A stretch of 35,357 nt of DNA from a virus (lineage: Duplodnaviria > Caudoviricetes): positions 1 through 35,357 of IMG/VR virus record IMGVR_UViG_3300050158_000041, one strand, 5' to 3'. This document shows positions 8,277-33,022 of the stretch, piece by piece. Positions within the stretch are counted from its first letter, which is position 1, and each line of letters opens with the position of its first letter. The position numbers and the translations under genes were made by a program. Under the pieces are notes generated by a model. That model was not told the origin of the DNA. It did not search any database and saw only the letters and a list, made by a program, of their open reading frames with translations.

Positions 8277-8321
8277 ACCCCGAGTTGTGAGCTGGCGTAA
8301 ATACATGATCGGAGGAAGATC

Positions 8322-9050
8322 ATGATTACGCTGGAGCAAAGGGATGAATTTGAGAAACATGCAATTGCACATTACCCTGAAGAGGTGTGCGCAGTAATTG
8401 CTGGTGGGAACCTCATTCTTTGTCAGAACGAGGCGGAAGATAGGAATAGCACCTTCAAGATTTCAGCCGAGAAATTGATTGAGGCTGAGATTTTGCATGG
8501 ACCGCTTGATTTGGTGTTGCATACCCATAGCGGCGCATCAGCTGGTCGCTGGCCTCGTCATTGGCCTTCTGGACAAGACATGCAGTCGTGGATGCACGGC
8601 TCTACCCCTTGGCTCATTTTTGCTTGCAATGGCGAAGGCTTGGGTGAGCACTGTGTATTGGACGACGCTAACCCCGCACCACTAGAGGGGCGCGAGTTCA
8701 TTCACGGCATTAACGACTGCTACTCATTGATCCGCGACTATTTTCGTATGGAGAAGGGTATTACCTTGCCGAATTACCCGCGTGACATGGAGTGGTGGGC
8801 TAAAGATAAGGATTTATACAGCGAGAACTTTGAGGCGGCAGGCTTTGTGGAAATACCTGCTGACCAAGTTCGCTCAGGGGATTGCATGATGATTCAATTC
8901 CGTAGCGACGTTATTAATCATGCTGCGGTAGTTATTGATGAATCGAGAATCCTTCATCACATGATTCATCGTCTTAGTGGTTACGACGATTGGAGTAAAT
9001 GGCACCGTGTCGCTGCAAAGTATGTCCGCTACGTTGGAGAAAAACAATAA
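8322..9050 (+). CDS. Tail tip protein gpK-like (JAB/MPN + NlpC/P60)
   Basis: HTH...PS..D JAB-like motif, plus GREF.HG..DCY, NHAAV and ILHH NlpC/P60 motifs. Confidence 0.93.
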   Translation: MITLEQRDEFEKHAIAHYPEEVCAVIAGGNLILCQNEAEDRNSTFKISAEKLIEAEILHGPLDLVLHTHSGASAGRWPRHWPSGQDMQSWMHGSTPWLIFACNGEGLGEHCVLDDANPAPLEGREFIHGINDCYSLIRDYFRMEKGITLPNYPRDMEWWAKDKDLYSENFEAAGFVEIPADQVRSGDCMMIQFRSDVINHAAVVIDESRILHHMIHRLSGYDDWSKWHRVAAKYVRYVGEKQ

Positions 9051-9937
9051 TGATTCGTACAGTACACCTACACGGCCCATTGGCCGAAAAGCTAGGTTAT
9101 ACAGAACCGCTTACTTTTGATGCGGATAATGTGCAAACTCTTATCAACGGTCTAACGATGTCGTTTCCAGACATCCGATCCGTTATGTTGGAGTTTTCTG
9201 ATGTGGCAATTGTTTTGCGTGATGGTGAGGAGTTGAAATCTCTGTCAGCAGAGCGTTTGCAGTACAACTTCGGGTTTGAGCCAGAGATTCACATTGCTGG
9301 TGCCATTAACGGGGCAGGTATCGAGACATTAACAGCGTTCTTCGTCATGGAGATGGAGATTTCATACGTTGCAGCAACTATTGCTGCGTACGCTGTTGCA
9401 ATTGCCGGAATGTATGCTGTCGGTCAAATAATTCAGTCGATGGCGGAAGTTCCTCAGAGCGCCACCGCTGAGGAAAAAGCAGCTAACTCTTCGTATCTGT
9501 TTAACGGCGCAGAAACTGTCGTAGGGCAGGGTTATCCCGTTCCGTTGATTTATGGTCGCTATCTAGTGGGTTCAGCTGAAATTAGTACAGAGCTATCTGC
9601 TGAGCGACTAGCTGTGGCACTAAATGATAACGTCTCCATCGATTTGCTTTATGAATCAGGCAAATCTGGCAATGTGCTGACAAATGACGTGTTTGGCTCC
9701 AGTTCAACGGTTTCATCGTTCACCATCAACGGAGTTACCACAGCTGCTGGCGGCACGTATAACAACGGTCAGATTTCAGTCACGATTGCAGCGAATGGTG
9801 CCTACACCATTATTCCGACGGTAACAGGTGATTGGGCGGTTACATACAACGCAACCAATGCGGCACATGGAAGTTCAAGTGCTGTTATGCAGATTAACGT
9901 CTCTCTTTCATTCGTGGATAGCTACGGTAGCCCTTAA
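9050..9937 (+). CDS. Tail assembly protein gpI-like with a C-terminal Ig-like extension
   Basis: RTV.LHG.L start and SY.FNG....GQG.PVPLIYG motif. The extra C-terminus (GNVLTND...ANGAYT) resembles an Ig/VCBS-type repeat. TAATG coupling. Confidence 0.85.
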   Translation: MIRTVHLHGPLAEKLGYTEPLTFDADNVQTLINGLTMSFPDIRSVMLEFSDVAIVLRDGEELKSLSAERLQYNFGFEPEIHIAGAINGAGIETLTAFFVMEMEISYVAATIAAYAVAIAGMYAVGQIIQSMAEVPQSATAEEKAANSSYLFNGAETVVGQGYPVPLIYGRYLVGSAEISTELSAERLAVALNDNVSIDLLYESGKSGNVLTNDVFGSSSTVSSFTINGVTTAAGGTYNNGQISVTIAANGAYTIIPTVTGDWAVTYNATNAAHGSSSAVMQINVSLSFVDSYGSP

Positions 9938-9991
9938 AGACCGCTAAAAGAGACCCAGCCTAAATACCTCCGTTCCTATTCGGAGGTTTGA

Positions 9992-12900
9992 ATGGCTGAT
10001 TTTCATGACATTAATGGTTCTGGCGGTGGTGGTAAGGGTGGTGGTGGTTCCTCATTTTACGAGGCGGAGAACACCCTCAAGTCTCTTGTCACTGCACGCT
10101 CACTACGATTAATCGGCGAAGGTCGTATTGGTGGTGTGGTCGGTGGAAAGAAGGGTGTTTACATTGACAACACTCCTCTTCAGAACGCTGACGGTACAGA
10201 TAATTTTGCTGGCGTCATCTTTGACCAGCGAGAAGGGTTCCCTTCTCAAGAGCGCATGTCTGGGTTCCCACTGGCTGCATCTGAGAGTGTCGTCGGGGTT
10301 TCTGTTACCAACGCAGCTCCGGTTACCCGTACTACTTCTGCTGCGGACATTGATGCGGTTGCAGTCACTATTGGCCTGCCACAAGGTCTAGTAAATCAAG
10401 AGACTACAAGCAACTCTGTTAAGGGCACTCAAGTTCAGATTGCTATTGACCGCAAGCTGACGACTGCTGGTGCCGGTTCCTGGGAGCAGGTTGTTTCCAA
10501 GACATTTGACGGAAAGACGCTATCCGCCTACGAAGAGAGCTTTCGTGTAGCGCGCCCAGCTGGAACCGGTAGTTGGGACATCCGCGTCCGTCGTATCACA
10601 GCGGACAACGGTACAGCTACTCTCAAGAACGCTACCGCTTGGAACCGAATGACTGAGTACCGCGAAGTGATCGCGGGCTTCACCGGTGAGTATCCAAACT
10701 ATGCGTATGTTGGTGTTGCAATTGATGCAACGTCAGCTACATCGAGCCAGATTCCTAAGCTGTCATTCCTTGTTGACGGCTTGTACATCATGGTTCCGTC
10801 TAACTACAACCCATCCAATCGCGTCTATACGGGGCAATGGGACGGTTCGTTTAAGGTTGCTTGGTCCGACAACCCAGCTTGGGTGTTGTATGACTTGATT
10901 ACCAATTCTCGATACGGCCTAGGTGAGTACATCAGCCGTGACATGGTTGACAAGTACAGCTTCTACAACGCTGCTGTCTACTGTGACCAATTGGTTAGCG
11001 ACGGTAAGGGCGGCACGGAGCCACGTTTTACATACAACGGAACTATTAATTCGCGTCAGGACGGGCTATCACACTTGCAGACTGTTGCCTCATCAATGAT
11101 GGCAAAAGTTGTGTGGGTCGGAGGCTTGGTAACGGTTATTCAGGACCGCCCAAGTTCACCTGTTTGCTTGATCACACGCGACAACGTAGTAAATGGTGAA
11201 TTCTCGTACAAGGGCTCTTCCTTCCAAGAGCGTGTTACGGCAGTAAACGTTAAGTGGAATGACCCGTCTGAAAAGTACTTGACACGTGTTACCCCGGTTG
11301 AAGCTTCACAAGCGGATTTCGACCGTTATGGGTACAACGAAGTAAACATCGACGCTGTTGGTTGTACTCGCGCTGGTCAAGCGCTGCGTGTTGGTAAGTG
11401 GTATCTCGATACCGTCCTTAATCAAGTTGAGACTGTTACCTTCACCATGAGTTACGAGGGTTTCGGCCTCATGGTGAACGATGTAATCAAGCTATTTGAT
11501 GAGCAGCGAGCTGGTCAAGCTCTTGCAGGTCGATTGGTTAGTGGGTCCACTACTACCGTTCTTCAACTAGACCGTCCAGTTACTTTGGCTTCGGGTAGCA
11601 CCGTTGATGTGATGCTGCCTTCCGGTGTTGTTGAAACAAAGGCGATCACAGAAACCGGCACTGTATCCTCTGTCACTTTGACGACAGCACTATCACAAAC
11701 TCCTGCTGAATACGCAGAGTTTGTTATTACTACTACGTCACTTTCTCCGCGTCAGTTCCGCATCACAAAGGTTTCTCTCAAAGATCAGAATTTGGTTGCG
11801 GTTGAGGCTGTAACCTATGATCCAAACAAATACAGTCGTGTTGAGACTGGTTTGAGTATTCCAGCACCAGTCTTTAGCGTCGTAACAGAACAGGTTGTTG
11901 GCGCTCCAACAGCAGTAGTTTTCCGCGAAACAGCGAAGAACGAAGATAACACGATTATTCGGTCGCTCGTAGTTTCATGGACTCGTCCGGTCACTGGTAC
12001 GATTTCCTCTTACCGACTGCAGTATCAGATTGATAGCTCTGGATGGCAGACGGTCACACCAGAGCACACAACGTTTGAGCTTCGGAACGTTGTTGTTGGT
12101 GCATACCAGTTCCGCATTCAAGCTCTAGGCTCTAACGGCGTCTACAGCACGCCTACAACAGCGTCTTACACAATTTCTGCAATTGGTGGTGGTAGCACGA
12201 CCCTATTAGCTCCTACGACGTTGGTTGAGCAAATTGGTGGGGGAACCACATTTACTGGTCAGGATTTGTACGTTGTTTGGACGAACCCAGCTGGCAACGC
12301 TGGTAATTCTGCGACTCTGCGAGACTTTCAGGTAACTGTCAAAACGACCTCGGATGCGGTTCTGCGTACCGAATACATTGCCCCTGTAGCTGCAGGTTCT
12401 ACACAGACCTATTCCTATTCATGGGCAATGAACAATCAGGACGGCGGCCCTCGTCGCTCCGTCAAGATTGAGGTAAGGGCACGAGATACCAACAACAATC
12501 TCACTTCAGCTGTTGTTAACACCTTTGCCAATCCGGCTCCGGCTGTCCCTTCCAACGTGGTTGCTAGTGGTGGGCTAGGCGCCGTGTTCTTGAATTGGGA
12601 TAAGAGCACTGACAAGGATTACATCGGTACGAACGTTTGGTTGAGCACAACGAGTGGTTTTACTCCGTCTGCAGCAACATTAGTAGCAGAAGGTGCAAGC
12701 GACTTCTATGCTCAGACAGGCTTGAATGCAGCCACTACCTATTACGTCAAGCTGGCTCAGTACGACGCTTTTGGCAGTTCGCAAGACGGTACTGGTCTGA
12801 ACGTTTCTCCACAATACTCAATTACCACTGCTGCGGGCGCTGGTATTCCAAAGGGCAGTGCGTTACCAGGGTCGGGTACAGAAGGAGACTTGTACTTCAA

Positions 12901-15007
12901 TACGACAGACGGCAAGGTCTATCGCTTTCACGGTGGTGCATGGACGGCACTGGTGCCTACGTCAGACTTGTCTGGACAGATTACGTCCGCTCAGCTGACA
13001 GACGGCGCAATTAACACGGCGAAGTTTGCTGCTGGTATTGCTGCCGTCGAGATTGTTGGTACTTTACCTTCGGCAGGTAACTTTGTGGGGCGTCAGGCTT
13101 ATCTCACGACGGACAACAAGCTGTATCGCTATAACGGAACTGCTTGGGTTAGCTCAGTTGCTGCAACCGATCTTGTTGGTCAAGTGGTCGCAAGTCAGGT
13201 CGCCGACGGCGCGATTAACACGGCGAAGTTTGCTGCCGGTATTGCACCCGTGGAAATTGTGGCTACATTGCCCGCAACTGGTAATTTCTCAGGTCGCCAA
13301 GCATTCTTGACTACAGACAATAAGCTGTACCGGTACGACGGAGCGGCGTGGGTAAAGTCAGTTGATGGCGGAGACTTGATTGCAAATTCTATTGTTGCAG
13401 GCAAGATCGCCGCTGGTGCGATTAGTGCGACTGAAATTTCAGCGAGCGCTATTACGACCGCAAAGATCGCTGCTGGTGCCGTTACAGCGAATGAAATCGC
13501 AGCCAATACTATCACCGCAGGCCAGATCGCAACTGACACGATTACATCTGCGCAGATAGCCGCTGGTGCCATTACCGCGAGTGAGTTGGCTGCAAACTCT
13601 GTGGTCGCAGGGAAGATTGCTGCTGGTGCAATTAGTGCCACCGAGATTGCAGCCGGTGCCATTACGGCTAGTAAATTGGCTGTCACTGGTCAAGGTAAAG
13701 CTATAAATGATGATCCAAACTTCGGCGACGCTACAGCGTGGTATAGCAACTCTGGTTCCTATACCTTGGTTACCGAAGCTACGTCGCCTGTTGGACGTAC
13801 GGTTGTTCGCGCCACCGGCCCGACTCGCGTACTTGGTCAACGTAAGGCACCTGTTACTGCTGGCACAACTTATAAGGTTTCCGTGTGGGCTCGCCAGACA
13901 ACTACCGACGGGAAGATGTACCTACGGTTGTACTGCTACGATCAGAATTCGGTATTGGTGAACTACGTAGTTACCGGGTTATCACCGGTCAGCGGCTCGT
14001 TAGAGGCTATTACGTTACCGAGCGCATGGACGAAGTACGTTGGGTACATCGTCGCGGGAGCTGGCGTTATTGAAGCTACGCCAGTCCTCCATTTGAATTG
14101 GTCTGGTACTGCTGCTGGGGTCAGTGATGCAACCGATCTGCGCTTTGAAGAGTACATCGGTGCTGACTTGATCGTTGATGGCTCAATTCAGGCTCGTCAC
14201 ATTGCGTCTGAGGTCATTACCGCAGACAAGATCGCTGCGAATGCAATCACTTCTAGCGAACTCGCTGCCAACTCAGTTGTCGCAGGCAAGGTCGCAGCTT
14301 CCACAATCGGTGCAGCTGAAATCATTGCATCGTCTATCACCGGCGACCGTTTAGTAGCGAACACGATCACCGGCGACAGGATTGCGGCGAACACAATTAC
14401 CGCATCGAACATCGATTCTCGTGGGTTGTCGATTAAGGACGCGAGCGGCAACATTATTCTGGCCGCTGGCTCTGCTCTCAATGTATCCAACATCAGTGGG
14501 CTGGGTACGTTGGCGACACAGAATTCCGCTGTATTTGGATCAACGATTAGCGGTCAGATTACCGCTGCCACTGCGTCTACATACATTGCAAATTTGGCAG
14601 TAGGTACGCTTCAAATTGCGAACCAAGCAGTCACGATTCCTGTGTCAGCCTACACAGAGGCTCAATTGACCACTTCAGGTGGCGGCACGATGAACGCTCA
14701 ATCATGTGCGATCACATCCACCGGTGCGCCAGTGAACGTCTTGGCTGGTATGAACATTCTGACAGGTCTAACCAATCAGAGTTACAACATCACAATTAAC
14801 GTGGTACGGGATTCGACTGTGATCTATACGACGGTTATTAAGACGATGACCGTCTCTACCTCATACTCGACAAACATCATTGCAACGCTTCCGCCGATTT
14901 ACGACGTTCCCGGTGCTGGGGCGCATACATACTACTTGCAGATTAATAACCCAGGTAACGGTGGCGTTTCTTGCCGGTCGGTTCTGCTGTTGGAGGTAAA
15001 GAAATGA
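9992..15007 (+). CDS. Central tail tip/host specificity protein (lambda gpJ-like)
   Basis: GSGGGGKGGG start, WDG.FK.AWSDNPAW and EPRFT motifs, FN3-like segments, C-terminal repeats and a lectin-like domain. Confidence 0.95.
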   Translation: MADFHDINGSGGGGKGGGGSSFYEAENTLKSLVTARSLRLIGEGRIGGVVGGKKGVYIDNTPLQNADGTDNFAGVIFDQREGFPSQERMSGFPLAASESVVGVSVTNAAPVTRTTSAADIDAVAVTIGLPQGLVNQETTSNSVKGTQVQIAIDRKLTTAGAGSWEQVVSKTFDGKTLSAYEESFRVARPAGTGSWDIRVRRITADNGTATLKNATAWNRMTEYREVIAGFTGEYPNYAYVGVAIDATSATSSQIPKLSFLVDGLYIMVPSNYNPSNRVYTGQWDGSFKVAWSDNPAWVLYDLITNSRYGLGEYISRDMVDKYSFYNAAVYCDQLVSDGKGGTEPRFTYNGTINSRQDGLSHLQTVASSMMAKVVWVGGLVTVIQDRPSSPVCLITRDNVVNGEFSYKGSSFQERVTAVNVKWNDPSEKYLTRVTPVEASQADFDRYGYNEVNIDAVGCTRAGQALRVGKWYLDTVLNQVETVTFTMSYEGFGLMVNDVIKLFDEQRAGQALAGRLVSGSTTTVLQLDRPVTLASGSTVDVMLPSGVVETKAITETGTVSSVTLTTALSQTPAEYAEFVITTTSLSPRQFRITKVSLKDQNLVAVEAVTYDPNKYSRVETGLSIPAPVFSVVTEQVVGAPTAVVFRETAKNEDNTIIRSLVVSWTRPVTGTISSYRLQYQIDSSGWQTVTPEHTTFELRNVVVGAYQFRIQALGSNGVYSTPTTASYTISAIGGGSTTLLAPTTLVEQIGGGTTFTGQDLYVVWTNPAGNAGNSATLRDFQVTVKTTSDAVLRTEYIAPVAAGSTQTYSYSWAMNNQDGGPRRSVKIEVRARDTNNNLTSAVVNTFANPAPAVPSNVVASGGLGAVFLNWDKSTDKDYIGTNVWLSTTSGFTPSAATLVAEGASDFYAQTGLNAATTYYVKLAQYDAFGSSQDGTGLNVSPQYSITTAAGAGIPKGSALPGSGTEGDLYFNTTDGKVYRFHGGAWTALVPTSDLSGQITSAQLTDGAINTAKFAAGIAAVEIVGTLPSAGNFVGRQAYLTTDNKLYRYNGTAWVSSVAATDLVGQVVASQVADGAINTAKFAAGIAPVEIVATLPATGNFSGRQAFLTTDNKLYRYDGAAWVKSVDGGDLIANSIVAGKIAAGAISATEISASAITTAKIAAGAVTANEIAANTITAGQIATDTITSAQIAAGAITASELAANSVVAGKIAAGAISATEIAAGAITASKLAVTGQGKAINDDPNFGDATAWYSNSGSYTLVTEATSPVGRTVVRATGPTRVLGQRKAPVTAGTTYKVSVWARQTTTDGKMYLRLYCYDQNSVLVNYVVTGLSPVSGSLEAITLPSAWTKYVGYIVAGAGVIEATPVLHLNWSGTAAGVSDATDLRFEEYIGADLIVDGSIQARHIASEVITADKIAANAITSSELAANSVVAGKVAASTIGAAEIIASSITGDRLVANTITGDRIAANTITASNIDSRGLSIKDASGNIILAAGSALNVSNISGLGTLATQNSAVFGSTISGQITAATASTYIANLAVGTLQIANQAVTIPVSAYTEAQLTTSGGGTMNAQSCAITSTGAPVNVLAGMNILTGLTNQSYNITINVVRDSTVIYTTVIKTMTVSTSYSTNIIATLPPIYDVPGAGAHTYYLQINNPGNGGVSCRSVLLLEVKK

Positions 15008-15579: not shown

Positions 15580-15656
15580 TTTGACATGGATTGGGTGTTT
15601 GAGTTCAGTGATCAACATCCAACCGATAAATAGTGACACTAGCTTTAGGGACTTGC

Positions 15657-16028: not shown

Positions 16029-16039
16029 GGGGCACACAA

Positions 16040-17055: not shown

Positions 17056-17067
17056 GGAGTAGGGCTG

Positions 17068-17346: not shown

Positions 17347-17406
17347 TCTGTTGCTGCCATCTGGCTGAATGACGGAGATTGGGAGCTTCTTAATAGGGAG
17401 CTTCCC

Positions 17407-17661: not shown

Positions 17662-17663
17662 GC

Positions 17664-18004
17664 CGTATCAGCGTTATCACTTCTGCTGCGAGCACCCCTA
17701 TCAAAAGTCGTATCAGTCACATCATGCTCGCGCCCTATGCGTCACACCCGGAACGATCTAGAGGTCGTCGGATCGAAGAAATCCCTTGTAAAACAAGGAG
17801 TTGCTTTCAACGGGATCGGGATCGTGTGACGCATTCAACTGCATTTCGCAGGCTCCTCTACAAGACCCAGGTTTAACGACCGCTCAGCTCGCGCCGGGCA
17901 AACCTCACACGTAAGTCGTTGATTTAATTAGGGTTCCGGGAAAGAGTCGGTTTCTACCGACCGAAGCTACCAAGTTGTAGCCGTTATCAAAAACGACATC
18001 AGTC
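17664..18004. other. Candidate attP region
   Basis: Non-coding gap between convergent genes. Paired arm-like repeats TATCAAAA-N4-YATCAGTC at 17699 and 17985. IHF consensus at 17912-17924 (minus) and a near-consensus at 17791-17803. Confidence 0.6.
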
Positions 18005-18394: not shown

Positions 18395-18475
18395 AAAGGG
18401 TATTTAGTTATTTTGGAAACATAGGACCTACCGCGCCCAATAAATACATCCACTCTGTAAATGAATGGATTAATC

Positions 18476-18730
18476 ATGGCTGGCACCTCCTCCGACCAAA
18501 AGAACTATGAAGTAGAAATTGCTCTCCTAAAACAGCGCGTTGAAATGGTAGAGACAAACATGAAAGAAATCGACAACGACGTAAAGGCGTTGCGGTCTGA
18601 ACTAAATGCAGGCATCAAGCAGCTGAGCGCACAGATTGCACAAATCAACATCACATTGGCTAAGTGGGGTGTTGGGATCAGCGTGGCTCTGTTCGTTGCC
18701 AAGCTGGCGGCCGACCACTTACTCAAATAA
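18476..18730 (+). CDS. Coiled-coil protein with C-terminal TM helix (XhlA/holin-like)
   Basis: Heptad-rich body followed by hydrophobic WGVGISVALFVA. TAAATA at 18441. The start could be 18461. Confidence 0.65.
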   Translation: MAGTSSDQKNYEVEIALLKQRVEMVETNMKEIDNDVKALRSELNAGIKQLSAQIAQINITLAKWGVGISVALFVAKLAADHLLK

Positions 18731-18951: not shown

Positions 18952-18979
18952 TTTACGTTGAGTGAGTCTGTTGTATAGT
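18952..18979 (+). promoter_or_regulatory. Candidate sigma70 promoter for the H-NS-like gene
   Basis: TTTACG-N16-TATAGT upstream of the GGAGG RBS. No TAAATA directly in front of this gene. Confidence 0.45.
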
Positions 18980-19005
18980 CGCCGTGCCTTATTCGGAGGA
19001 ACAAC

Positions 19006-19356
19006 ATGGCAACTGCACCCGACATTACCAAGCTCTCGTATGCCGAACTCCAGAAGCTGCTCGCTGAGACGAATGCAGCGCTGACCAACAAGAAGGATGA
19101 GGAAATCAAGGTCCTCGTCAACGGCTGGAAGTTGAAGGCAGAGCAGGCAGGCTTCACAGTGGAAGAGGTGATCGCTGAGTTCACCAACTACCTGCCGCAA
19201 CGCAAGGCTCGCACGACTACCAGCAATGCAGCACCGGTGGTCAAGTACCGCGATCCGGCTACTGGCGATACTTGGTCAGGCAAGGGACGTACGGCTCGCT
19301 GGTTGCAAGCACACATCGATGCTGGCAGGAAGAAGGAAGACTTCTTCGTTGGCTGA
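19006..19356 (+). CDS. hns: H-NS family nucleoid-associated/silencing protein
   Basis: C-terminal KYRDP.TG.TWSGKGR...WL signature and an N-terminal coiled coil. Confidence 0.93.
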   Translation: MATAPDITKLSYAELQKLLAETNAALTNKKDEEIKVLVNGWKLKAEQAGFTVEEVIAEFTNYLPQRKARTTTSNAAPVVKYRDPATGDTWSGKGRTARWLQAHIDAGRKKEDFFVG

Positions 19357-19952: not shown

Positions 19953-21080
19953 TCACTTGGTGTTCAGGTTGTCTAGCACTCCTGCTGCCTTCCTCGATAC
20001 GTCTGAAGGTACGAGGCTGGCATACACCATCGTCGTCTGAGGGTCGCTGTGTCCAAGCAGCTGCTGCACCTCAAACAGACTGACGCCGTTCTGCACAAGC
20101 TTGCTGGCGAACGTTGAACGCAGCTTGTGGAAGCGGATCTTCTTGCCGGTGATGCCAGCCCGCTCAACAGCCCTTTGAAACCACATGTTGTGATAGGGTC
20201 TGTGATCATTCCGCTCGTCATTCGGGAACACCCACTTCTCATGAGTCGGCTCAGCGGCACGGCTAGTCAAAATGGCCTTCACACGGTCAGTCATGAAGAT
20301 CGTGTGACGCTTACCGGTCTTCCACTGACGAACGAACATCACACCAGCTTGGAGGTTGACGTCCTTCCATTCCAGGTGCGTGATCTCGTGATAGCGGCCG
20401 CCTGAGTCGAGCAAGCACACAACGAAGTCGTACTGGTCCTGCAGACGCTGTTGGCGATGCTCAGGCCGCTTCTCGTAGCTTCCGTAGCCCTGAACGTCAC
20501 GCGTCGGGTCAAGAGAGGCGAGCAGCTTCTGTTCTTCGTCAGCGGTCAGGTAGACGGGTTCGCGCTTCTCCCGCTTGAACGACGGGAACTCCATCGCCTC
20601 ATCAACCATGTAGCCGAGGTTCTTGCAGTGCTTCCATGCACAGGCAACAGCCATCACGTGTTGCTTGATTGTTGCATCCGCATAGCCTTCCTTCTTGCGA
20701 GCTTGGACAAGACGATTGATGTCACTGCCGCGGAGGTGCTGAAGCTTCATGTCCGGATCAAGGCTGTACACGGAAACCTGCTTCTTCGTCTTGTTGTCGC
20801 GCTTGCTGCCGTAGAGGACAGGATTGCGAACACTCGTCAGAACCTTGTGGTAGGGAGTGCCTTCCTTCGATTCAAGATGAAGGTCGAACGCTTCTCCAAG
20901 AGTGATCTGTTCCAACTCCCGTCCAAGCGCGTCCTCCTTGACCAGTCGTTCGCGCTCTTTCGCTTCAACCTGACGAGCAATTGCCTTGTTCGTCGTCTTC
21001 GTGCTTTTGAATACCTTTTTGCCCTGGAACTGGAAGCTCATGTACCAGTAGTCCGAACCCTTGTGCTTAACGATCGTCAT
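19953..21080 (-). CDS. int: Tyrosine integrase
   Basis: Catalytic R (GGRYHE), K (KTG), HKLR, LLGHS and Y (TMVYA) are all present, with an N-terminal arm-binding-like domain. Confidence 0.97.
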   Translation of the reverse strand: MTIVKHKGSDYWYMSFQFQGKKVFKSTKTTNKAIARQVEAKERERLVKEDALGRELEQITLGEAFDLHLESKEGTPYHKVLTSVRNPVLYGSKRDNKTKKQVSVYSLDPDMKLQHLRGSDINRLVQARKKEGYADATIKQHVMAVACAWKHCKNLGYMVDEAMEFPSFKREKREPVYLTADEEQKLLASLDPTRDVQGYGSYEKRPEHRQQRLQDQYDFVVCLLDSGGRYHEITHLEWKDVNLQAGVMFVRQWKTGKRHTIFMTDRVKAILTSRAAEPTHEKWVFPNDERNDHRPYHNMWFQRAVERAGITGKKIRFHKLRSTFASKLVQNGVSLFEVQQLLGHSDPQTTMVYASLVPSDVSRKAAGVLDNLNTK

Positions 21081-23617: not shown

Positions 23618-24517
23618 TTAAGGAGTAGTACCGGCTGCACTTTGATCAGCAGCGGTATTTATGATAGTCGAATTTTCCTCAGACCCCAACAGCTTAGCCT
23701 TCTTGCGCTTCATGTATTCTTGCTGCAGTCGGCTCCTGTTCTTTTTCATTTCCTCTTCCGTCATCGGTACATGTGGAGACTTACCTTCACGAGCCAGCCT
23801 ACGCAAATAGACAGCCCGGTTGTATTCCTTCGACCTCTTCTTGGTTGGGCCTTTCCGTTCTACCGGCTCAGACGCCACAACTTCCGGTTCTACGTCGTTC
23901 CTTTGCTCAGCCAGCTTTTCTAGTGCCCTTCGGTTACGGGACTGGCGTGCTAGCTCCCTTGTCCGGGCTAGTTGCTCTTCAATCGTCCATGTCTTCAATG
24001 TGTTTGCTGGAAGACGAATCGTGGTGCTGGATTGAACTGGCGTCTTACCAGCATTGCTTCGTGGCTCAATGTCCCTCGTTGCGATCCCTTGAATGACATG
24101 CGTTGCCGTTGCACTGATGCCGCTTGCCAGGTCCCTCGTCAGCACACCGGAATAAACGAGCTCTGACAAATGAGCCCTTACCGCCTTCACCAGCTCGCGT
24201 AGGTCATTGCTGGTGATGAATGCCGTGTCCAAGCCGGGTATGCGAACAATGTACGTGTATGTGTCCGGGATGTAGGTGTTGGGTGCGTCGTCATTTGGAT
24301 TTGAGTTAGACCGGCCATGCTTCGTCCGCTGGTAGTAAGCCCGTTGGTATGCCGCCTGCCTTTCCTTGGTCCGCTCGTTGTACTCGCGGTTGTATTCCGC
24401 CTGCTTCTCTTTGTACTCGGCGGTCTTCCTGCGTTCAGCCCGCCGTGCCAAAAGCCGTTGCTTGTTCTTCTGGTAATAGGCCCGTTGCTTGGCTCGTTGT
24501 TCTTCTTGCGTTGTCAT
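23618..24517 (-). CDS. Highly basic protein with repeated R.Y...NKE-type helices; putative nucleic-acid binding
   Basis: 299 aa with repeats QRAYYQKNK / REYNERTKE / QRAYYQRTK. TAAATA at 24540-24545 (minus). Confidence 0.8.
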   Translation of the reverse strand: MTTQEEQRAKQRAYYQKNKQRLLARRAERRKTAEYKEKQAEYNREYNERTKERQAAYQRAYYQRTKHGRSNSNPNDDAPNTYIPDTYTYIVRIPGLDTAFITSNDLRELVKAVRAHLSELVYSGVLTRDLASGISATATHVIQGIATRDIEPRSNAGKTPVQSSTTIRLPANTLKTWTIEEQLARTRELARQSRNRRALEKLAEQRNDVEPEVVASEPVERKGPTKKRSKEYNRAVYLRRLAREGKSPHVPMTEEEMKKNRSRLQQEYMKRKKAKLLGSEENSTIINTAADQSAAGTTP

Positions 24518-25024
24518 ACATCACCTATGTCGTTCGATGTATTTAGCTGAGGCGAATACGGCGTATCTGATGTGGTTTGCCTCAATGAGGAAGCTGTGTT
24601 GAAAACGAAGTCGTGATGTGAATTCCGACGCAGGAGGAATGAACATGCACGGAATGCATTGAGTTGTGATAGATCCATTGAAGCGCTAAGTTGATTTCAT
24701 GAAGGAAACAAACACAAACACATCAATGACGAACGAAGTGAGGAGATTTGATGTGCTTCGTTGTTTTGCTCGCCAGAGCACTACATCTGCTGCCATTTCC
24801 TCCCTTTAAAGTACTCAGTGAAAACCTAATTCCTAGCGGGGACAACTTGTGAGTGGTCACGCCTGCGGCGAAACATCAGCAGATTCGCTTCCGCTTCGCG
24901 TCGCTAATCAGCAGATGTTTGGTGTTCTTACTAGTGGTTGACTAAAGACAAATCATCAAGTCCCTAGCCCGCGTTTTCGTAGCTGATTGGAAGTACCTCA
25001 CGGTTCACATAAGTGAACGATTTC

Positions 25025-25370
25025 AAAAAAGGAGCCATAACTCCCAAGGTGGTCAACTTTATGGGTGATCATCCCAAGGGCTCGTTAGATTGGCTCCACA
25101 ATCTCTGTTCCCACTCTGGCAGGAGAAGGGTATCACTGCCTGTCGTTTCTAGTTAGCCTGTTTGTTTCAGGTGATTTCATTCCTCAGTCTCAATTAGGAG
25201 AATAAGGTGGGGTGCAGATCAGGAAGCCGAGTTTGGACGTGGGCAAGAGTTAGAAAGCAGCGACATTGCATCGCATTTGTGATCTGCACCCCTGAAATCG
25301 AATCCTGGGAAATCACTGTACTTTGTAACTCTTCTTCTACGTTGGCGTCCACTCCAACGATCATCTCTGA
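25025..25370 (-). ncRNA. Candidate ~345-nt structured ncRNA
   Basis: TAAATA (25377-25382 minus) to a hairpin+T6. Contains 13-bp, 12/13-bp and 8-bp long-range stems. Confidence 0.55.
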
Positions 25371-25499
25371 TACTTCTATTTATGCTTGGGGAATGAAAGA
25401 GTGACAAAAACGCTGACGAGGACTAAAAAAGCTAATGAAATCAAGCAGTTAGCACAGTCGCGTCTGTTCCCATCTGTTCCGCAATTAGTGTAAAAGTTG

Positions 25500-25673
25500 T
25501 CAGGCGTCTTTGCTCTTGACGCGCCTGGGAGCTGCATCCACCACCTCTTTGGGCTTGATCACCGGCTTCCTCCACTTCTTACGCAGCCGCATCCTGCCCT
25601 TCGGAGCAATGTCGTGCCTCATTGTTTGGGTCAGATGGTGGTCGTGCTCGTTCGCTAAGTGTTTGTCCTTCAT
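25500..25673 (-). CDS. Small basic hypothetical protein (57 aa)
   Basis: GGAG RBS before ATG 25673 (MKDKHL...). Lies downstream of a structured leader. Confidence 0.45.
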   Translation of the reverse strand: MKDKHLANEHDHHLTQTMRHDIAPKGRMRLRKKWRKPVIKPKEVVDAAPRRVKSKDA

Positions 25674-26119
25674 CCTAGTCTCCAATTAAAAGGGGCCTGG
25701 ACCAAAATAGCCCAAGCCCCAGTTCCTCTCTGACTCCCCAGCCAGGAACAGGAAGTGAAGGCCAATCCCTCACATCCTGCACGTCTATTTAGTAGGGGAA
25801 CATAAACCCGGCCGCAACTTTGTCATTTAGCCGCCTGCAAATTCCCCTGCGAACATAAGCAACACAAATAGCAGAAGCAGCAAGTACAAGAGAAACAGCA
25901 ATTAGAGGAACAGCATCAGTAATAACAATAGACTAAAGCTAAGGGGAAGTACAAGAGGCAAAGAAGAAAGGGAAAAGCTAACGGGGAGGAAAGAACACAT
26001 CACGCCCACAATGTCTGACTCTCGTAAAGCAGTCCACCATTAGCAGCTGTGAGAAGTGAGTTAATCCTGGCCTGAGCTGAGTACATCCGGGCGCATTGCT
26101 TCCGTATTCATCTCACCAT

Positions 26120-26213
26120 TCAGCTGGCCATAAATTCACAAATCAGCTAGACACAGACAGAGCTACATCAGCTGGACATAAACTCACAAATCAGCCGTAC
26201 ATAAACTCATAGG
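26120..26213 (+). repeat. Four imperfect ~23-bp iteron-like direct repeats
   Basis: TCAGC..(A/C)CATAAA(C/T)TCACAAA units starting 26120, 26143 (degenerate), 26168 and 26191, followed by an AT-rich tract 26214-26253. Confidence 0.75.
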
Positions 26214-26776
26214 AATTTTTTTTTAGAAGGCAACAGGAAAATAAATTTATTTTGTGGGTATTTTCCCCCATGCCCATAAACACTATTCCACTGCCCATTC
26301 AACTGTTTTGCATTGACACGACAGTTACGCAGGCAGGGGACTTCACTAAACCTGTATGGACCACTGGGATTGTCGAATGCGCGGACAACCTAGGATGGAA
26401 TTTCAGGTTGCCTGTTGCTGCCTTCCCGGGGCTAGCAGGACAATAAAAGGTTTTGCCCCAATTAAATGTCCTACTAATTAGGGTGACTATCTGTTGACCT
26501 GGCAATAAGGCTCGTTCAGTCAACATTTATTTGAATGGCTGTCTCTCCGTAGGTACTCAGCTACAACTCATGCGCTTTTGTAGATAAACCCTAATTCCCC
26601 TGTAGTGATGCGCAGTTAGGGTAAGACTTCTGATTTATGCCCCGACTATTGATGCCGCTGCAAACCCACTATTCATGCGGGTGTTATGCGTTGTCTATCT
26701 AGCAGGGAGCACGGAGGATAGACGAGTGGGAAAGCGTGCCCGGTTAACAGCTTGGGGCTACTCGACTAAATAAGAA

Positions 26777-26982
26777 GGTGCTGTTGCCAAGAGCGGTCAA
26801 AGCCAGGAGTAATCCAGACGGCGATTCAATCCGACTAACAACAACCATTCAGGGCTCCGCAAACGCCATGCCCACTGAACGCTACAGGTCAACAAAGCGA
26901 TGCGTGTTTAACCCCATACGGATTGTGCTGTTGGGGATTTGTTGTTTCTGCAATAGGAAAAGGCCCCCGAAGGAGCCTTTTG
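26777..26982 (+). ncRNA. Candidate ~205-nt structured ncRNA
   Basis: TAAATA 26767 to terminator AAAAGGCCCC-CGAA-GGAGCCTTTT. Multi-branch pairing and no convincing ORF. Confidence 0.5.
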
Positions 26983-26992
26983 TGTGTCTGCC

Positions 26993-27169
26993 TCAATCAA
27001 ACGGCAGAACAATGTCTAAGTCCTGTTGCCTTTCCCACCAGTGTTCGTGTTCCTGGTGAGCGACTTGCCATTCTTCCATCGTGATCTCGGTGACTTCAAC
27101 ATCGAGTTCTTGACGACTGAACAGAAGCCGCATACGCATCGCTTCACTCAGCGGTATTTCCTTCTTCAT
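26993..27169 (-). CDS. Small acidic hypothetical protein (58 aa; below the ORF-track cutoff)
   Basis: AGGAG RBS. MKKEIPLSEAMRMRLLFSRQELDVEV...VLPFD*. Ends just before the bidirectional terminator at 26958-26981. Confidence 0.7.
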   Translation of the reverse strand: MKKEIPLSEAMRMRLLFSRQELDVEVTEITMEEWQVAHQEHEHWWERQQDLDIVLPFD

Positions 27170-27404
27170 TGGTAACTCCTAAATGCCATCCGATTGACGG
27201 CAAAGGTACTTTCCAATGAGTACCAAATAGAGGCTACCAATCAGCTTACGGTTTAGGCTGGTACTGGCATTCCTTTGGCTAAACCCTTCATCTTCAATCA
27301 AATGCTGGGGCTTGGCTACTAAAGAGCATTCATTTCAGGAGGCGTTTATGTCCCCTTGCATAAATAAGAGAGCCGGTGAAGGAATCCGGCGAAGGAGAAC
27401 AACT

Positions 27405-27665: not shown

Positions 27666-27718
27666 TCGAATTAGGGGACGTAACGACAATGAAGACATCA
27701 ACGCTAGGGAGAACGACC

Positions 27719-28063: not shown

Positions 28064-28083
28064 GCACACAGCCGCAAACAACG

Positions 28084-28107
28084 AAAGGGCCTCTAAGGGC
28101 CCTTTTT
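28084..28107. terminator. Bidirectional terminator
   Basis: AAAGGGCC-TCTAAG-GGCCCTTTTT between convergent genes. Confidence 0.8.
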
Positions 28108-28124
28108 CATTGGGGAAGACTGCT

Positions 28125-28283
28125 TTACTTCACTTGGACAACAGCAGTAATGCGCAGGTTCTTGATACCTTGTTCCTTCGCCATCGCCTTAACCTTTTGC
28201 TCAGCTTGTTCGGTGGTATCAGCTTCGACTTGGATGGTATAGACACGACCGACGCTAGAGCAGATGACGTTGAAGGTGAACAT
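28125..28283 (-). CDS. Small hypothetical protein (52 aa)
   Basis: GGAG RBS before ATG 28283. The I.VEA.T.EQA pattern is common in phage early proteins. Confidence 0.7.
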   Translation of the reverse strand: MFTFNVICSSVGRVYTIQVEADTTEQAEQKVKAMAKEQGIKNLRITAVVQVK

Positions 28284-28353
28284 TTGGAACTCCGGTTGCT
28301 TTGTTGCTTGCGATGAGTCCACTATCTAAGGGCAGTACCAATAAGACAACGAG

Positions 28354-28378
28354 AAAAGCCGGCTCAAGGCCGGCTTTT
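28354..28378 (-). terminator. Intrinsic terminator
   Basis: AAAAGCCG-N9-CGGCTTTT after the 28396..28773 gene. Confidence 0.8.
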
Positions 28379-28395
28379 GTTATGGGTGGTTTGCC

Positions 28396-28773
28396 TCACT
28401 TCTTCGACAGCTCCTTGGAAATGTTTGCGTAGTAGGTAGCAGAGCCAGCCGGAGACAGGCCGATCTGTGCGAACTGGGCCAGGATTTCTTTGCGAGACAG
28501 CTTGCCGAAATGCTTGGCCATGATCGCCCGAGCCTTGTCCACCTTGCTCTCACCCTTCGCTTCCTTGGTCTCTGCGGGCTTCGGCTCAGGCATCACCAGC
28601 TTGCCGCTCATCTTTTGCATCATCGCCTTCTGTTCGTCCACCAGCTTCATCGTGGCTGCATCGGCGATCTTGACAACCGGCTTGACTGCTTCGACTGCGT
28701 TTTCCGGAGCAGCGGTGTTGTTGTCAGCCTTCACAGCCTTGACGGACTTGGTAGCGGTGGTCTTGGTAGCCAT
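28396..28773 (-). CDS. Phage protein with Lys/Ala-rich N-terminus and a C-terminal HTH-like domain
   Basis: AAGGGA RBS before ATG 28773. SK..KARAI...RKEI.....GL..AG.ATYY.N pattern. Confidence 0.8.
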   Translation of the reverse strand: MATKTTATKSVKAVKADNNTAAPENAVEAVKPVVKIADAATMKLVDEQKAMMQKMSGKLVMPEPKPAETKEAKGESKVDKARAIMAKHFGKLSRKEILAQFAQIGLSPAGSATYYANISKELSKK

Positions 28774-28918
28774 TTGGAAATCCCTTCGTTGGGTTGGTTG
28801 CGGTGAAGTCAACTATCCCTAGGTCTACCAAACAAACAACTGCTGATAAACACCCACAAGACGACCGTTGCCTCCAAACGCCTAAATACCCTCCATAACA
28901 ACTACAAGGGATTTGGCG

Positions 28919-30744: not shown

Positions 30745-30791
30745 TGGGTGGACAGATAAATACCGATTACAACAAGAACAAAGGTTAGCGA

Positions 30792-32297
30792 ATGATTAAC
30801 AACAACACGAAAGACGAACAGGTACTCGTTGCAGGTCTTTCAGCTGGCGAATTGGTTGGGATGCTGAAGTGCGACGAAGCAGAGTTCGCAGCCAAAGCAC
30901 TGAACTACTACGACGGCAAGCAAGAGAAGGAAATGGTCGAACTGCTCAACCATCCCGAAAAGGGCCGTAAGCAGTGGAAGAAGCGTGGCTACATCGCCCG
31001 TCACCGCAATCTGACCAAGATGATCGTTGAGAAGAGCGCAATGCTGTTCAAGGACGCACCGCCGCAGCTGGAGGTTCGTCTTCCTGGCAGCGATCAACCG
31101 TCCGTCCCTGCGACTGAAGCGGTTGTTGATCTGCTGGACGGTACGGAATGGCAAGAGACGATGGCGAACCTAGACGCTGTAGTCCGCCTGCTGAAGACTG
31201 GCCTGTTGCTTGTTCAGTGGGATACGGCAGAAGGCAAGCCGGTGTTTGACATCCTGCACCGCGGAAACGCAGCTGTTGTGACGAACCCGCTGACGAAGGG
31301 TGTAGACGTACTGGTTCAACGCACGGGCTGCTCCGGCAAGGCTCACTACTACCGCATCTGGTCTGCTGAGACGATTTGGGATGTCGTTGAGCTTGACCAG
31401 GACGTATCGCTATCCGCCACGACTCCGAACACGTACGGCATCGTTCCGGTGGCTGTGTTCTATGACACCAACGCACCACGTAACGGCTTCTGGGTCGATG
31501 CGCCTCGTGACCTAGTGAACGTCAATGAGATGTACAACCTGCACCTGACTGACAGCGAATTTGCTATCAGCTGGATGAAGCGCCCGAGCCTGTTCACCAA
31601 CTGCACGCTTGATGGCTACACAGACGAACAGATCGAAGTCGCTGAGGTGTACGGCTCTGTCCTGCCTCGCGCTGTCTCTCGCACGCCTTCTCTCACAGCT
31701 GGCCCGGACATCGCAGTTGTGGTTGGCAGCAGTGGTGGTGACACGCCTTTCATCGATTACAAGTCTCCGCAGATCGACCTGAAGCCAATGGACGACGTTG
31801 TTCAGGGCTGGGTGAAGCAAACGGCTGCTGATTGGTCTGTCCGTGTTCGCGCTGATGGTGAAGGCAAGGCTACGAGCGGTTTCCAAGTCGTCGTAGAGGA
31901 AATGCCAAACCTAGAGCTGCGTCAGCTACGCCAGCGCATGTTTGAAGCGGGTTTTAAGCGTTTCTATCGCCAACTAGCCGCTGTTTCTCCTATCGGATTG
32001 CCTGTCGAAGCTCAGTTGTTCGCTGTCTTCGCTAAACCAAACCTGCCAGTCGATCACAAGGCTGAAGAGGATGTGTGGAGCGTTCGCATCAAGGAAGGCC
32101 GCGCTACTGAGCTTGACTACTACATGCAAACGCAAGGCCTATCGAAAGACGAAGCAATGGCTAAGTGGGTCGAGGTTTGTGAGTTCCGTCAAGCGAAGGC
32201 AAAGATTGACCAGCTGCTAGCACCAGAAGTAGAACAGGACGCACAGAAAGACGTTCAAGAAGAAGATAAAGCAGAGAACGAAAACCCAGCAGAGTAA
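30792..32297 (+). CDS. Portal protein (SPP1-like)
   Basis: 501 aa after terL, with YY.G.Q and N.YG.VP motifs. TAAATA 30757. Confidence 0.88.
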   Translation: MINNNTKDEQVLVAGLSAGELVGMLKCDEAEFAAKALNYYDGKQEKEMVELLNHPEKGRKQWKKRGYIARHRNLTKMIVEKSAMLFKDAPPQLEVRLPGSDQPSVPATEAVVDLLDGTEWQETMANLDAVVRLLKTGLLLVQWDTAEGKPVFDILHRGNAAVVTNPLTKGVDVLVQRTGCSGKAHYYRIWSAETIWDVVELDQDVSLSATTPNTYGIVPVAVFYDTNAPRNGFWVDAPRDLVNVNEMYNLHLTDSEFAISWMKRPSLFTNCTLDGYTDEQIEVAEVYGSVLPRAVSRTPSLTAGPDIAVVVGSSGGDTPFIDYKSPQIDLKPMDDVVQGWVKQTAADWSVRVRADGEGKATSGFQVVVEEMPNLELRQLRQRMFEAGFKRFYRQLAAVSPIGLPVEAQLFAVFAKPNLPVDHKAEEDVWSVRIKEGRATELDYYMQTQGLSKDEAMAKWVEVCEFRQAKAKIDQLLAPEVEQDAQKDVQEEDKAENENPAE

Positions 32298-32313
32298 TAC
32301 CGATCTGCACAGT

Positions 32314-32342
32314 AAAGAGGCCCTCCGGGGCCTCTTTGTTTT
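32314..32342 (+). terminator. Intrinsic terminator after portal
   Basis: AAAGAGGCC-CTCCGG-GGCCTCTTT+GTTTT. Confidence 0.85.
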
Positions 32343-32398
32343 GGGAAAGCATAAATACATCCAGCAACCCCGGATGGGGTCATTTAAGGAGAAGCTGG

Positions 32399-33022
32399 AT
32401 GGCTGACGAAAACAACGTTCAAGTTGTTGAACAAGAACAGACACAAGTGTCGGATGACACAACCCAATCCCAAGTCGAATCGCAACAGACGGATGTCGAT
32501 GTTGATGACGTAGAGGCAAAGATTGCTGATCTACAAGCGCAACTAGCGAAGCAGCAAGAGATTGTTGAGAAGGCCCGTAAAGGCGAGAAGTACCAAAAGA
32601 GCAAGGCAGATGCTGAGGTCAAGAAGGTACTGGCGCAATACGAAGCCGAGAAGGCGCGCGCAGACGCCCTAGAGCAAAAGATTCGCAACGGTGCAATGGA
32701 CGGTGCCCTCCGTCAAGCGCTCAGCGAGAACGGTGCTAAAGCTGTGGATACGGCTTTGAAGTTGGTTGACCGAAGCGCAATCAAGATCGGTGACGACGGC
32801 TCAGTAAATGCAGATTCTGTTAAGGCAGTAATCGATGCATTGAAGGCTAGCGACTCGATTCTGTTTGACGCAGTAACGGAAGCCGCTCAAGCAACCAAAA
32901 CTGCTCCACCTGCGGTACGAGCTACTGAGGCCGACAAGATTTCTGGTTATGCAGCTGAAATGATGGCTGCTAAAACATCAAAGGAAGTACAGGCGGTTCT
33001 AAAGAAGTACGGTAAAGCATAA
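32399..33022 (+). CDS. Capsid scaffolding protein
   Basis: Acidic N-terminus and coiled coil, lies between portal and capsid. TAAGGAG RBS favours ATG 32399. TAAATA 32352. Confidence 0.85.
   Translation: MADENNVQVVEQEQTQVSDDTTQSQVESQQTDVDVDDVEAKIADLQAQLAKQQEIVEKARKGEKYQKSKADAEVKKVLAQYEAEKARADALEQKIRNGAMDGALRQALSENGAKAVDTALKLVDRSAIKIGDDGSVNADSVKAVIDALKASDSILFDAVTEAAQATKTAPPAVRATEADKISGYAAEMMAAKTSKEVQAVLKKYGKA

What the first reader, a model, noticed from the sequence alone, without database searches (positions are those of the whole stretch)
8296..32401. Promoter-overlapping hairpins that lock RBS/start codons unless transcription starts at the TAAATA box
Seen at gpK: TAAATA-CATGATC-[GGAGGAA]-GATCATG (8298-8324), with the SD in the loop and ATG in the stem. 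At gpJ: ACCTCCG(9966-9972)/CGGAGGT(9981-9987) buries GGAGG. At scaffold: CATCCAGC(32358-32365)/GCTGGATG(32394-32401) buries ATG. At the 299-aa ORF (minus, 24516-24542): ATACATC/GATGTAT. At terS: AAAT(A)CCCT/AGGGATTT. At the tape measure gene: a weaker ATACTC/GA(G)GTAT. In every case the 5' arm begins in or right after the box. Known: T4 genes e, soc, 49 and I-TevI use this logic. Read-through RNA folds and is untranslated, while late-promoter RNA lacks the 5' arm. Inference: this is a safety catch against leaky expression from the integrated state, and evidence that TAAATA is a -10-type start site rather than an operator.
Basis: partly seen in the sequence, partly recalled or inferred. Interest (0 to 1): 0.85.

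Follow-up and report, generated by a model that had tools for sequence, protein, structure and literature searches.

The report
Promoter-gated ribosome locks in helper-wired prophage
A 34-kb temperate phage puts the late-promoter word of T4-type phages before most of its particle genes but has no detectable gene for the factor that reads it, and hairpins overlapping four of these promoters are predicted to hide the ribosome site unless the RNA starts there, a known T4 trick in a phage that likely waits for a T4-like helper.

Summary
The quoted stems exist at the stated coordinates, but only some beat chance: gpK and gpJ strongly (fold z -5.9, -5.5), terS and scaffold moderately; the 299-aa ORF is borderline and the tape-measure stem is chance. 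All collapse when RNA starts 6 nt after TAAATA. The box is a T4 gp55-type late promoter: leaderless ATGs peak exactly there in relatives, there is no -35 signal, T4-like phages of Comamonadaceae use the same word, and three relatives encode their own gp55. This phage, its Hydrogenophaga prophage relative (24 of 48 chromosome-wide boxes) and most relatives have no detectable gp55, so a T4-like helper likely supplies it. The hairpins are the known T4 e/soc/49/I-TevI device and a minority feature (13 of 156 family leaders, 5 expected). They also occur in lytic phages and integrase-less relatives, so 'safety catch for the integrated state' is only weakly supported; blocking read-through from upstream late promoters fits the tail-tip genes better. 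No RNA data. The scan noted helper wiring and such hairpins before on other DNA (unreviewed notes); my ten paper searches found no report of such a satellite.

The parts
8298..8303 (+). gp55-type late promoter box of gpK; predicted RNA start 8309
8292..8334 (+). gpK gate hairpin: core arms 8304-8310/8318-8324, SD GGAGGA in the loop, ATG 8322 in the stem, outer stem runs into the box and codons 2-4
   Evidence: z -5.9
8322..9050 (+). gpK-like tail tip protein with NlpC/P60 domain
9961..9966 (+). late promoter box of gpJ; predicted RNA start 9972
9950..10004 (+). gpJ gate hairpin: core arms 9966-9972/9981-9987 bury GGAGG; outer stems pair 9950-9960 with early codons
   Evidence: z -5.5
9992..15007 (+). 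central tail fibre gpJ
28880..28917 (+). terS box (28883-28888) and 11-pair stem burying the SD; predicted RNA start 28894, ATG 28919
   Evidence: z -3.2; opening test not significant; like stems in G001 prophage, G002, G005
32352..32401 (+). scaffold box (32352-32357) and gate stem 32358-32365/32394-32401 over the ATG (32399); predicted RNA start 32363
   Evidence: z -2.2
32367..32380 (+). inner GGAU-tetraloop hairpin of the scaffold leader, kept in box-initiated RNA; recurs family-wide with changed stems
   Evidence: 23 of 38 scaffold leaders, shuffle mean 0.9
24516..24545 (-). box (24545-24540) and 7-8 pair stem at the 299-aa basic ORF; borderline
3330..3356 (+). tape-measure box and leader; box real, hairpin not above chance
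18441..18478 (+). box and stem 18448-18470 before the 89-aa coiled-coil/membrane ORF, next to a holin-like ORF (labels by eye, no family hit over cut-off); extra candidate gate
17724..17876 (+). attP: replacement 5' end of the host dGTPase (dgt) gene, core at 17858-17872
   Evidence: contigs run across the joined form
19953..21080 (-). tyrosine integrase; no exact box here, exact box before the homologue in the G001 prophage
18952..19356 (+). H-NS-like gene (19006-19356) behind the only plus-strand sigma-70-like site of the window

Best explanation
TAAATA is likely a T4 gp55-type late promoter that starts RNA 6 nt downstream, and the stems overlapping it at gpK, gpJ, terS and scaffold are predicted to block ribosome loading on any RNA arriving from upstream while leaving RNA started at the box open. 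Shown: stems, box placement, collapse of the predicted fold at box+6, leaderless ATGs at box+6 in relatives, no detectable gp55 in this phage or in a relative's host chromosome, gp55 in three relatives. Inferred: an infecting T4-like phage supplies gp55 (and probably replication and lysis functions), switching on the prophage gene by gene. Inferred purpose: each gated gene is translated only from its own promoter, which limits low-copy tail-tip parts, terminase and scaffold when upstream late promoters read through, and secondarily mutes stray host transcripts while no helper is present.
For: Box 26 times vs 7.5 expected; before portal 35 of 66, scaffold 38 of 54, tail tube 25 of 34, terS 7 of 11 family leaders, but terL 1 of 61, neck 0 of 34, terminator 0 of 28. 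No upstream conservation; A at T4 position -12 in 55 of 73 and at +1 in 36 of 73 leaders; gp55 pockets A-12, A-9, A-8 (PMC7892883 passages). ATG at box+6 in 12 of 279 boxes vs 0-4 at the other spacings from 0 to 15 and 0-2 for five control hexamers; gpI, gpK and the 131-aa homologue confirmed by alignment. Opening cost falls to its floor by +5/+6 in 16 of 17 selected family leaders shown (one G005 leader earlier still counted; G004 scaffold stays partly folded). 24 of 48 boxes of a 3.28-Mb Hydrogenophaga chromosome lie in the 36-kb prophage. phiW-14 and ACP17 encode gp55 and use bare TAAATA with like hairpins. gp55 in 2 of 29 family virus records plus L167; none else among 19,186 ORFs; G004 gp55 keeps 5 of 7 pocket residues. 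Only virion proteins are shared by all 7 genomes compared. Gates in 14 of 67 terS/scaffold/tip leaders vs 5 of 88 capsid/tube/portal/adaptor/chaperone leaders (p 0.004, classes chosen after seeing the data). No strong plus-strand terminator between the tape-measure box and gpJ (one 5-pair match at 7470).
Against: No RNA, translation or infection data. Family-wide there is no general shift in opening cost (Wilcoxon p 0.99 over 156 leaders; only 13 top all 30 shuffles). Gates are not kept at the same gene: relatives gate gpM, gpI or none. Tape measure fails, 299-aa is borderline, terS fails the opening test. No helper is identified: the close clade prefers A before the box (15 of 26 here, 19 of 24 in G001), phiW-14 and ACP17 do not (6 of 23, 6 of 24). 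Several ORFs remain unassigned, so a diverged own activator, replicase or lysin is not excluded. T4-like phages often degrade or silence unmodified DNA (recalled), which the prophage would have to survive.
Confidence: 0.62

Rival explanations
1. One reading: the gates evolved mainly as a safety catch against leaky host transcription of the integrated prophage.
For: 9 of 54 leaders in integrase-bearing members vs 6 of 107 in members without a detected integrase (p 0.026; 0 of 19 in the GC-matched integrase-less group). terS is first in its cluster and overlaps terL (nuclease) by ATGA; the 89-aa membrane gene and 299-aa basic ORF lie near the only sigma-70-like sites. Sigma-70-like sites are absent from the virion strand (0 vs 9.5), a sign of selection for silence.
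Against: Same device in lytic T4, phiW-14, ACP17 and integrase-less relatives. The strongest gates (gpK, gpJ) lie deep in a region with no predicted host promoter but several upstream late boxes. Groups are related genomes; AT-rich ones include chance boxes; serine integrases were looked for in only 6 of the 20 'integrase-less' records.
Confidence: 0.25
2. The boxes are read by a factor of the phage itself (an unrecognised activator or very diverged sigma) or by gp55 of a co-resident small relative, so no large helper is needed; the gates work as described.
For: G004, G418 and L167 encode gp55. The window has unassigned ORFs, among them a 203-aa YdfE/Trans_reg_dom-like lead and a 162-aa ORF without match.
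Against: No gp55-like ORF in the window by family model or custom profile; none in 131 genus and 301 family host genomes searched; the 203-aa and 162-aa ORFs occur in only 2 of 7 genomes that all carry boxes; no replication or endolysin hit in the window.
Confidence: 0.2
3. The stems are not translation gates but by-products (terminator-like or RNA-stability hairpins, or protein-binding operators) that happen to overlap leaders.
For: Real terminators also start at boxes (2512, and 880336, 883128 in G001); the scaffold 3' arm GCTGGATG is kept in relatives lacking the 5' arm and sits beside a conserved GGA-loop hairpin; most leaders have no gate.
Against: gpK and gpJ stems lack U tracts, pair exactly with SD or ATG, and end within 1-2 nt of the independently placed start; terS stems in 4 of 5 close relatives differ in sequence but keep pairing.
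Confidence: 0.12

Closest known systems
T4 promoter-in-hairpin translational control of genes e, soc, 49 and I-TevI (PMC3014915, passages read)
   Same: Late promoter embedded in the 5' arm; SD and/or AUG paired in long RNA, free in promoter-started RNA; similar predicted strength (T4 e 12.5, I-TevII 13.3 vs gpK 11.9, gpJ 16.5 kcal/mol).
   Different: Here in a 34-kb temperate siphophage, on tail-tip, terS and scaffold genes; arms reach 4-8 nt past the box, whereas in T4 e and I-TevII the arm lies upstream and the box is mostly in the loop; no early or middle phage transcription to guard against.
T4-family late promoters read by gp55 with gp33 and gp45 (PMC7892883 and PMC2988020, passages read)
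   Same: -10-only element, no -35, A at -12 common, start 6 nt after the box; bare TAAATA as in phiW-14 and ACP17.
   Different: The window encodes no detectable gp55; gp33 and gp45 gave no hit in its family scans. Leading T of TATAAATA is not kept (7 of 62).
Satellite phages MiniFlayer, MulchRoom and Ando of Streptomyces (PMC10690885, PMC13587820, passages read)
   Same: Own capsid genes, no obvious replicase; MulchRoom and Ando are temperate, MulchRoom has a nucleoid-type protein (Lsr2, cf. H-NS here); virulent large helpers.
   Different: 13-17 kb and tail-dependent or helper-attached, while this family has a full head and tail in 30-39 kb; the word 'promoter' does not occur in either paper's main text; helper dependence is shown or strongly indicated there, only inferred here.
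PICMI and PLE satellites of virulent phages (PMC10803314, passages read; PLE recalled)
   Same: Chromosomal elements woken by infection with a virulent phage.
   Different: They use helper virions; how the helper activates PICMI is stated as open. Here the likely trigger is written in the promoters.
T7-like-promoter genetic islands of enterobacteria (Chen and Schneider 2006; recalled, paper not held)
   Same: Integrated element with phage-specific promoters and no polymerase of its own.
   Different: T7 RNA polymerase rather than gp55; no virion genes as I recall; not checked here.

Membership tests
T4-type promoter-in-hairpin translational gate | Stem pairs SD and/or start codon in read-through RNA, above chance | tested here: met
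   gpK, gpJ, terS, scaffold by folding z; gpK, gpJ by opening test; tape measure not met
T4-type promoter-in-hairpin translational gate | Proximal promoter starts RNA inside the hairpin and removes the 5' arm | tested here: met
   Start placed at box+6 by leaderless ATGs; folds collapse there; computational, no mapped 5' ends
T4-type promoter-in-hairpin translational gate | Measured drop in translation from long RNA | not testable with these tools
   No RNA holder listed; needs reporters
T4-type promoter-in-hairpin translational gate | Pairing kept by compensatory change in relatives | tested here: inconclusive
   terS stems in 4 of 5 close relatives with changed arms; one G-C to A-U swap in the scaffold stem of L009 (read by eye); gpK and gpJ gates have no aligned counterparts
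gp55-dependent late promoter | -10-like TA-rich box, no -35 conservation | tested here: met
gp55-dependent late promoter | Start site 6 nt after the box | tested here: met
   numbering from PMC7892883
gp55-dependent late promoter | Cognate gp55 in the same genome | tested here: not met
   Absent from window and G001; present in G004, G418, L167
gp55-dependent late promoter | Transcription requires gp55 | not testable with these tools
   needs expression or in vitro assay
Satellite phage (own virion proteins, helper needed to multiply) | Encodes virion proteins | tested here: met
   Full head and lambda-like tail
Satellite phage (own virion proteins, helper needed to multiply) | Lacks replication, late activator and lysis genes | tested here: inconclusive
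   None recognised in window or G001 prophage; G002 and G409 have primase/helicase, G407 spanins; many ORFs unassigned
Satellite phage (own virion proteins, helper needed to multiply) | Multiplies only with a helper | not testable with these tools
   No cultured member among 50,697 phage records by portal search

The most novel reading that the evidence does not exclude
A widespread family of 30-39 kb phages with complete virions that have handed their late transcription to T4-like lytic phages: the prophage is silent because only an invader's gp55 can read its promoters, and promoter-embedded hairpins add a second key at translation. It would be a bacterial counterpart of a virophage, with intermediates that still carry their own gp55.
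Probability: 0.55. Interest if true: 0.85.

Novelty: new variant of a known kind. Interest (0 to 1): 0.6.

Why it matters
The hairpins alone extend a known T4 device to a temperate phage and to tail-tip, terminase and scaffold genes. Their value is as part of a readable wiring diagram: if an invading T4-like phage's sigma factor is the inducer, this gives a direct mechanism for how a prophage senses a virulent phage, a question left open for PICMIs (PMC10803314), and predicts parasites of large lytic phages that look like ordinary prophages. It is testable with one gene (gp55) and short reporters, and a family portal protein is recorded from Ramlibacter sp. AN1015 (its DNA not seen).

Tried and rejected
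Tape-measure hairpin: chance. A general family-wide gate: rejected. A host sigma regulon for TAAATA: rejected by the 24-of-48 clustering in G001. Box as a sigma-70 -10 element: TAAATA lacks the final T (established consensus), and the scanner finds no plus-strand site there. 162-aa ORF as a hidden gp55: no match. Exact helper: phiW-14, ACP17, RSP15 and Xanthomonas phage BUDD have gp55, BcepSauron gave none; none shows a clear preference for A before the box. No RNA holder listed. Contigs of 7 runs laid on two stretches gave no variants in the gpK/gpJ leaders and no host junction at att (contigs show presence only). No family portal in 50,697 phage or 72,556 plasmid records, no capsid DNA match in E. 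coli genomes; only G001 among 401 host-family genomes searched. Rfam: one chance-level match. Tail-tube and first metagenome scans empty. Ten paper searches found no prophage or satellite with T4 late promoters; the library lacks most subscription papers and no supplements were read. In one search the first control row repeats TAAATA by a slip and is ignored; the control-mean column includes overlapping words and is not used.
Full report
What the window is. A circularly permuted phage genome of about 34.3 kb (the ends overlap by about 1 kb at 80% identity) with terminase, portal, scaffold, capsid, connectors, a lambda-like tail (gpM, L, K, I, J), a tyrosine integrase and an H-NS-like gene; 45 ORFs scanned against PHROGs and Pfam gave no sigma factor, CI-type repressor, replicase or endolysin. 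It carries a replacement 5' end of the host dGTPase gene at attP. A close relative is integrated in that gene in a Hydrogenophaga chromosome, with a 16-bp direct repeat at both ends. Other family portals are recorded from Ramlibacter and Acidovorax, so the host is probably a Comamonadaceae bacterium (inference). The portal profile finds 157 proteins.

The observation. The quoted arms are present. Against dinucleotide shuffles the read-through leaders of gpK (z -5.9), gpJ (-5.5), terS (-3.2) and scaffold (-2.2) are unusually stable; the 299-aa ORF (-0.3) and tape measure (+0.8) are not; started at box+6 none is. The extra energy to open the ribosome site (-13 to +5 around ATG) in read-through RNA was 11.9, 16.5, 7.5, 5.5, 3.9 and 3.2 kcal/mol for gpK, gpJ, scaffold, 299-aa, terS and tape measure, with shuffle p 0.003, 0.003, 0.063, 0.10, 0.37 and 0.51; capsid, tail tube and portal leaders showed nothing; the 89-aa ORF after box 18441 gave 6.6 (p 0.033). 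The same test on T4 (150 of 169 kb fetched, 19 of 24 box-gene pairs kept) flags e and I-TevII but misses soc, so it is conservative.

The box. TAAATA occurs 26 times against 7.5 expected. Across 160 loci and genomes, reduced to 565 distinct leaders, it precedes portal (35 of 66), scaffold (38 of 54), tail tube (25 of 34), chaperone (15 of 23) and terS (7 of 11) but not genes inside operons (terL 1 of 61, neck 0 of 34, terminator 0 of 28). In 73 leaders (of 101 pairs; GTG starts, weak SDs, long spacers and duplicates dropped) there is no conservation upstream, A stands before the box in 55 and at box+6 in 36. In T4 numbering, gp55 pockets A-12, A-9 and A-8 (PMC7892883, passages), which puts +1 at the sixth base after the box. 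Independent of any hairpin, an ATG opening a long frame sits at exactly that base in 12 of 279 boxes from 46 GC-richer sequences, against 0-4 at other spacings and 0-2 for five control hexamers; alignments confirm gpI, gpK and a 131-aa homologue, and ACP17 has two such genes. T4-like phages of Comamonadaceae, phiW-14 and ACP17, use bare TAAATA before their late genes and encode gp55. Most telling, three relatives encode gp55 themselves (G004, G418, L167); G004's keeps N13, L54, F86, Y97 and T99 and is itself a leaderless gene at box+6.

Who reads it. The window, G002, G003 and the whole G001 chromosome gave no gp55 match where phiW-14 did; 27 of 29 further family virus records, including 17 of 18 judged at least 90% complete, gave none; a custom profile over 19,186 ORFs found only the three relatives, the next hit at E 0.89; 131 genus and 301 family host genomes gave none (positive controls only). 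Half of the 48 boxes in the 3.28-Mb host chromosome lie in the 36-kb prophage, so it is no host regulon. Among 7 genomes that all carry boxes only virion proteins are shared by all. The simplest reading, which I stated before seeing earlier notes, is that gp55 comes from an infecting T4-like phage; gp55 alone gives basal, accurate initiation on supercoiled DNA (PMC2988020, passages). This is inferred, not shown. Against it: no helper with the same preference for A at -12 was found, many ORFs are unassigned, and some members have primase/helicase, spanins or their own gp55. Not all of the 29 records show a genome-wide box excess; in AT-rich ones counts are near expectation.

What the gates are for. 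They are a minority feature: 13 of 156 family leaders top all 30 shuffles (5.0 expected, p 0.002) with no overall shift (Wilcoxon p 0.99); the smaller, GC-richer set of 73 gave p 0.01 against swapped heads. They fall on terS, scaffold and tail-tip genes (14 of 67) more than on capsid, tube, portal, adaptor and chaperone genes (5 of 88; p 0.004, a post hoc split that includes this window). Relatives gate other tip genes with unrelated sequences (gpM and gpI in G001, gpJ in L178), and terS stems recur with changed arms in G001, G002 and G005 but not L009. Integrase-bearing members have more gates (9 of 54 vs 6 of 107, p 0.026; G005 left out as partial, the window's scaffold leader dropped by a filter), but lytic T4 (5 of 19), phiW-14 and ACP17 (3 of 21, one before a lysozyme-like gene read by eye) and integrase-less relatives have them too. 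In the window the virion strand has no sigma-70-like site (0 vs 9.5 +/- 3.1; weaker depletion in G001, G002, G005) and no strong terminator between the tape-measure box and gpJ. The RNA most likely to cross the gpK and gpJ leaders is thus the phage's own late RNA from upstream boxes. I favour a dosage role there (each low-copy part translated only from its own promoter; copy numbers recalled from lambda), with silence in helper-free cells as a plausible second role, best for terS, the 89-aa membrane gene and the 299-aa ORF.

Comparison and novelty. As a device this is the T4 e/soc/49/I-TevI gate (PMC3014915, passages) in a new setting. As a system it works like a satellite phage (MiniFlayer, MulchRoom, Ando; PMC10690885 and PMC13587820, passages) but has a full virion and a legible trigger; membership is untested because helper dependence cannot be shown here. 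Ten searches of the held library (listings, plus passages of PMC13492144 and PMC10803314) found no such element in print; subscription papers and supplements were not seen. Unreviewed notes of this scan describe the same helper wiring in at least eight findings on other DNA and TAAATA-linked hairpins in an E. coli prophage; they are not independent support.

Verdict. Observation partly confirmed (4 of 6 supported, 1 borderline, 1 chance); interpretation partly supported; new variant of a known kind; interest 0.6, rising to about 0.85 if helper-supplied gp55 is confirmed.

Noticed in passing
window 32367-32380 and scaffold leaders of relatives: A hairpin with a GGA(U/G) loop and freely varying stems lies 8-31 nt before the scaffold start in 23 of 38 leaders (shuffle mean 0.9, max 4; 0 of 22 tail tube, 2 of 31 portal; one locus counted twice, some loops are the SD itself). 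More conserved than the gates; looks like a protein-binding translational operator (scaffold autoregulation or CsrA/RsmA-type, both recalled leads).
   Followed up: partly
window 17724-17876; G001:C1 about 864,640 and 900,590: Integration into the host dGTPase (dgt) gene, with the phage supplying a new 5' end of about 50 codons; seen in the window, G001 and G002.
   Followed up: yes
G004 2482-2961, G418 11178-11597, L167 near 4950-5410: Small phages of this family with their own gp55-like sigma upstream of the terminase region; they lack the C-terminal tail seen in T4, phiW-14 and RSP15 gp55. G004's is leaderless behind its own box, a possible positive feedback loop, and G004 has a serine integrase.
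   Followed up: partly
window 2512-2546; G001:C1 880336 and 883128; L002 1758: Intrinsic terminator hairpins that begin at the box, so the upstream RNA ends where the next late RNA starts.
   Followed up: no
window 24550-27300: About 2.7 kb with no convincing gene, three boxes (25382-, 25791-, 26767+), a 28-bp direct repeat (26120-26147/26168-26195) and an A/T run; candidate origin or small RNAs; no Rfam match.
   Followed up: partly
window 6-1037 vs 34326-35357: Terminal overlap at only 80% identity, probably two strains joined in assembly.
   Followed up: no
window boxes; T never follows the box in 62 close-family leaders and rarely stands at -13 (7 of 62), which would avoid a sigma-70-like TAT; untested.
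   Followed up: no
L253:9506-10582 (G418): 358-aa ORF without PHROG hit that by eye has DNA polymerase A-like motifs; possible minimal replicase.
   Followed up: no
L092:5712-6125 and ACP17 28150-28545: A phrog_240 gene shared by G001, G002, G005 and the T4-like phage ACP17 (33-43% identity), behind a TAAATA box in all four.
   Followed up: partly
L222 (2.2-Mb metagenome contig) and L183 (51-kb contig): Further likely prophage members with boxes; L222 drops from 70% to 55% GC at its left edge.
   Followed up: no
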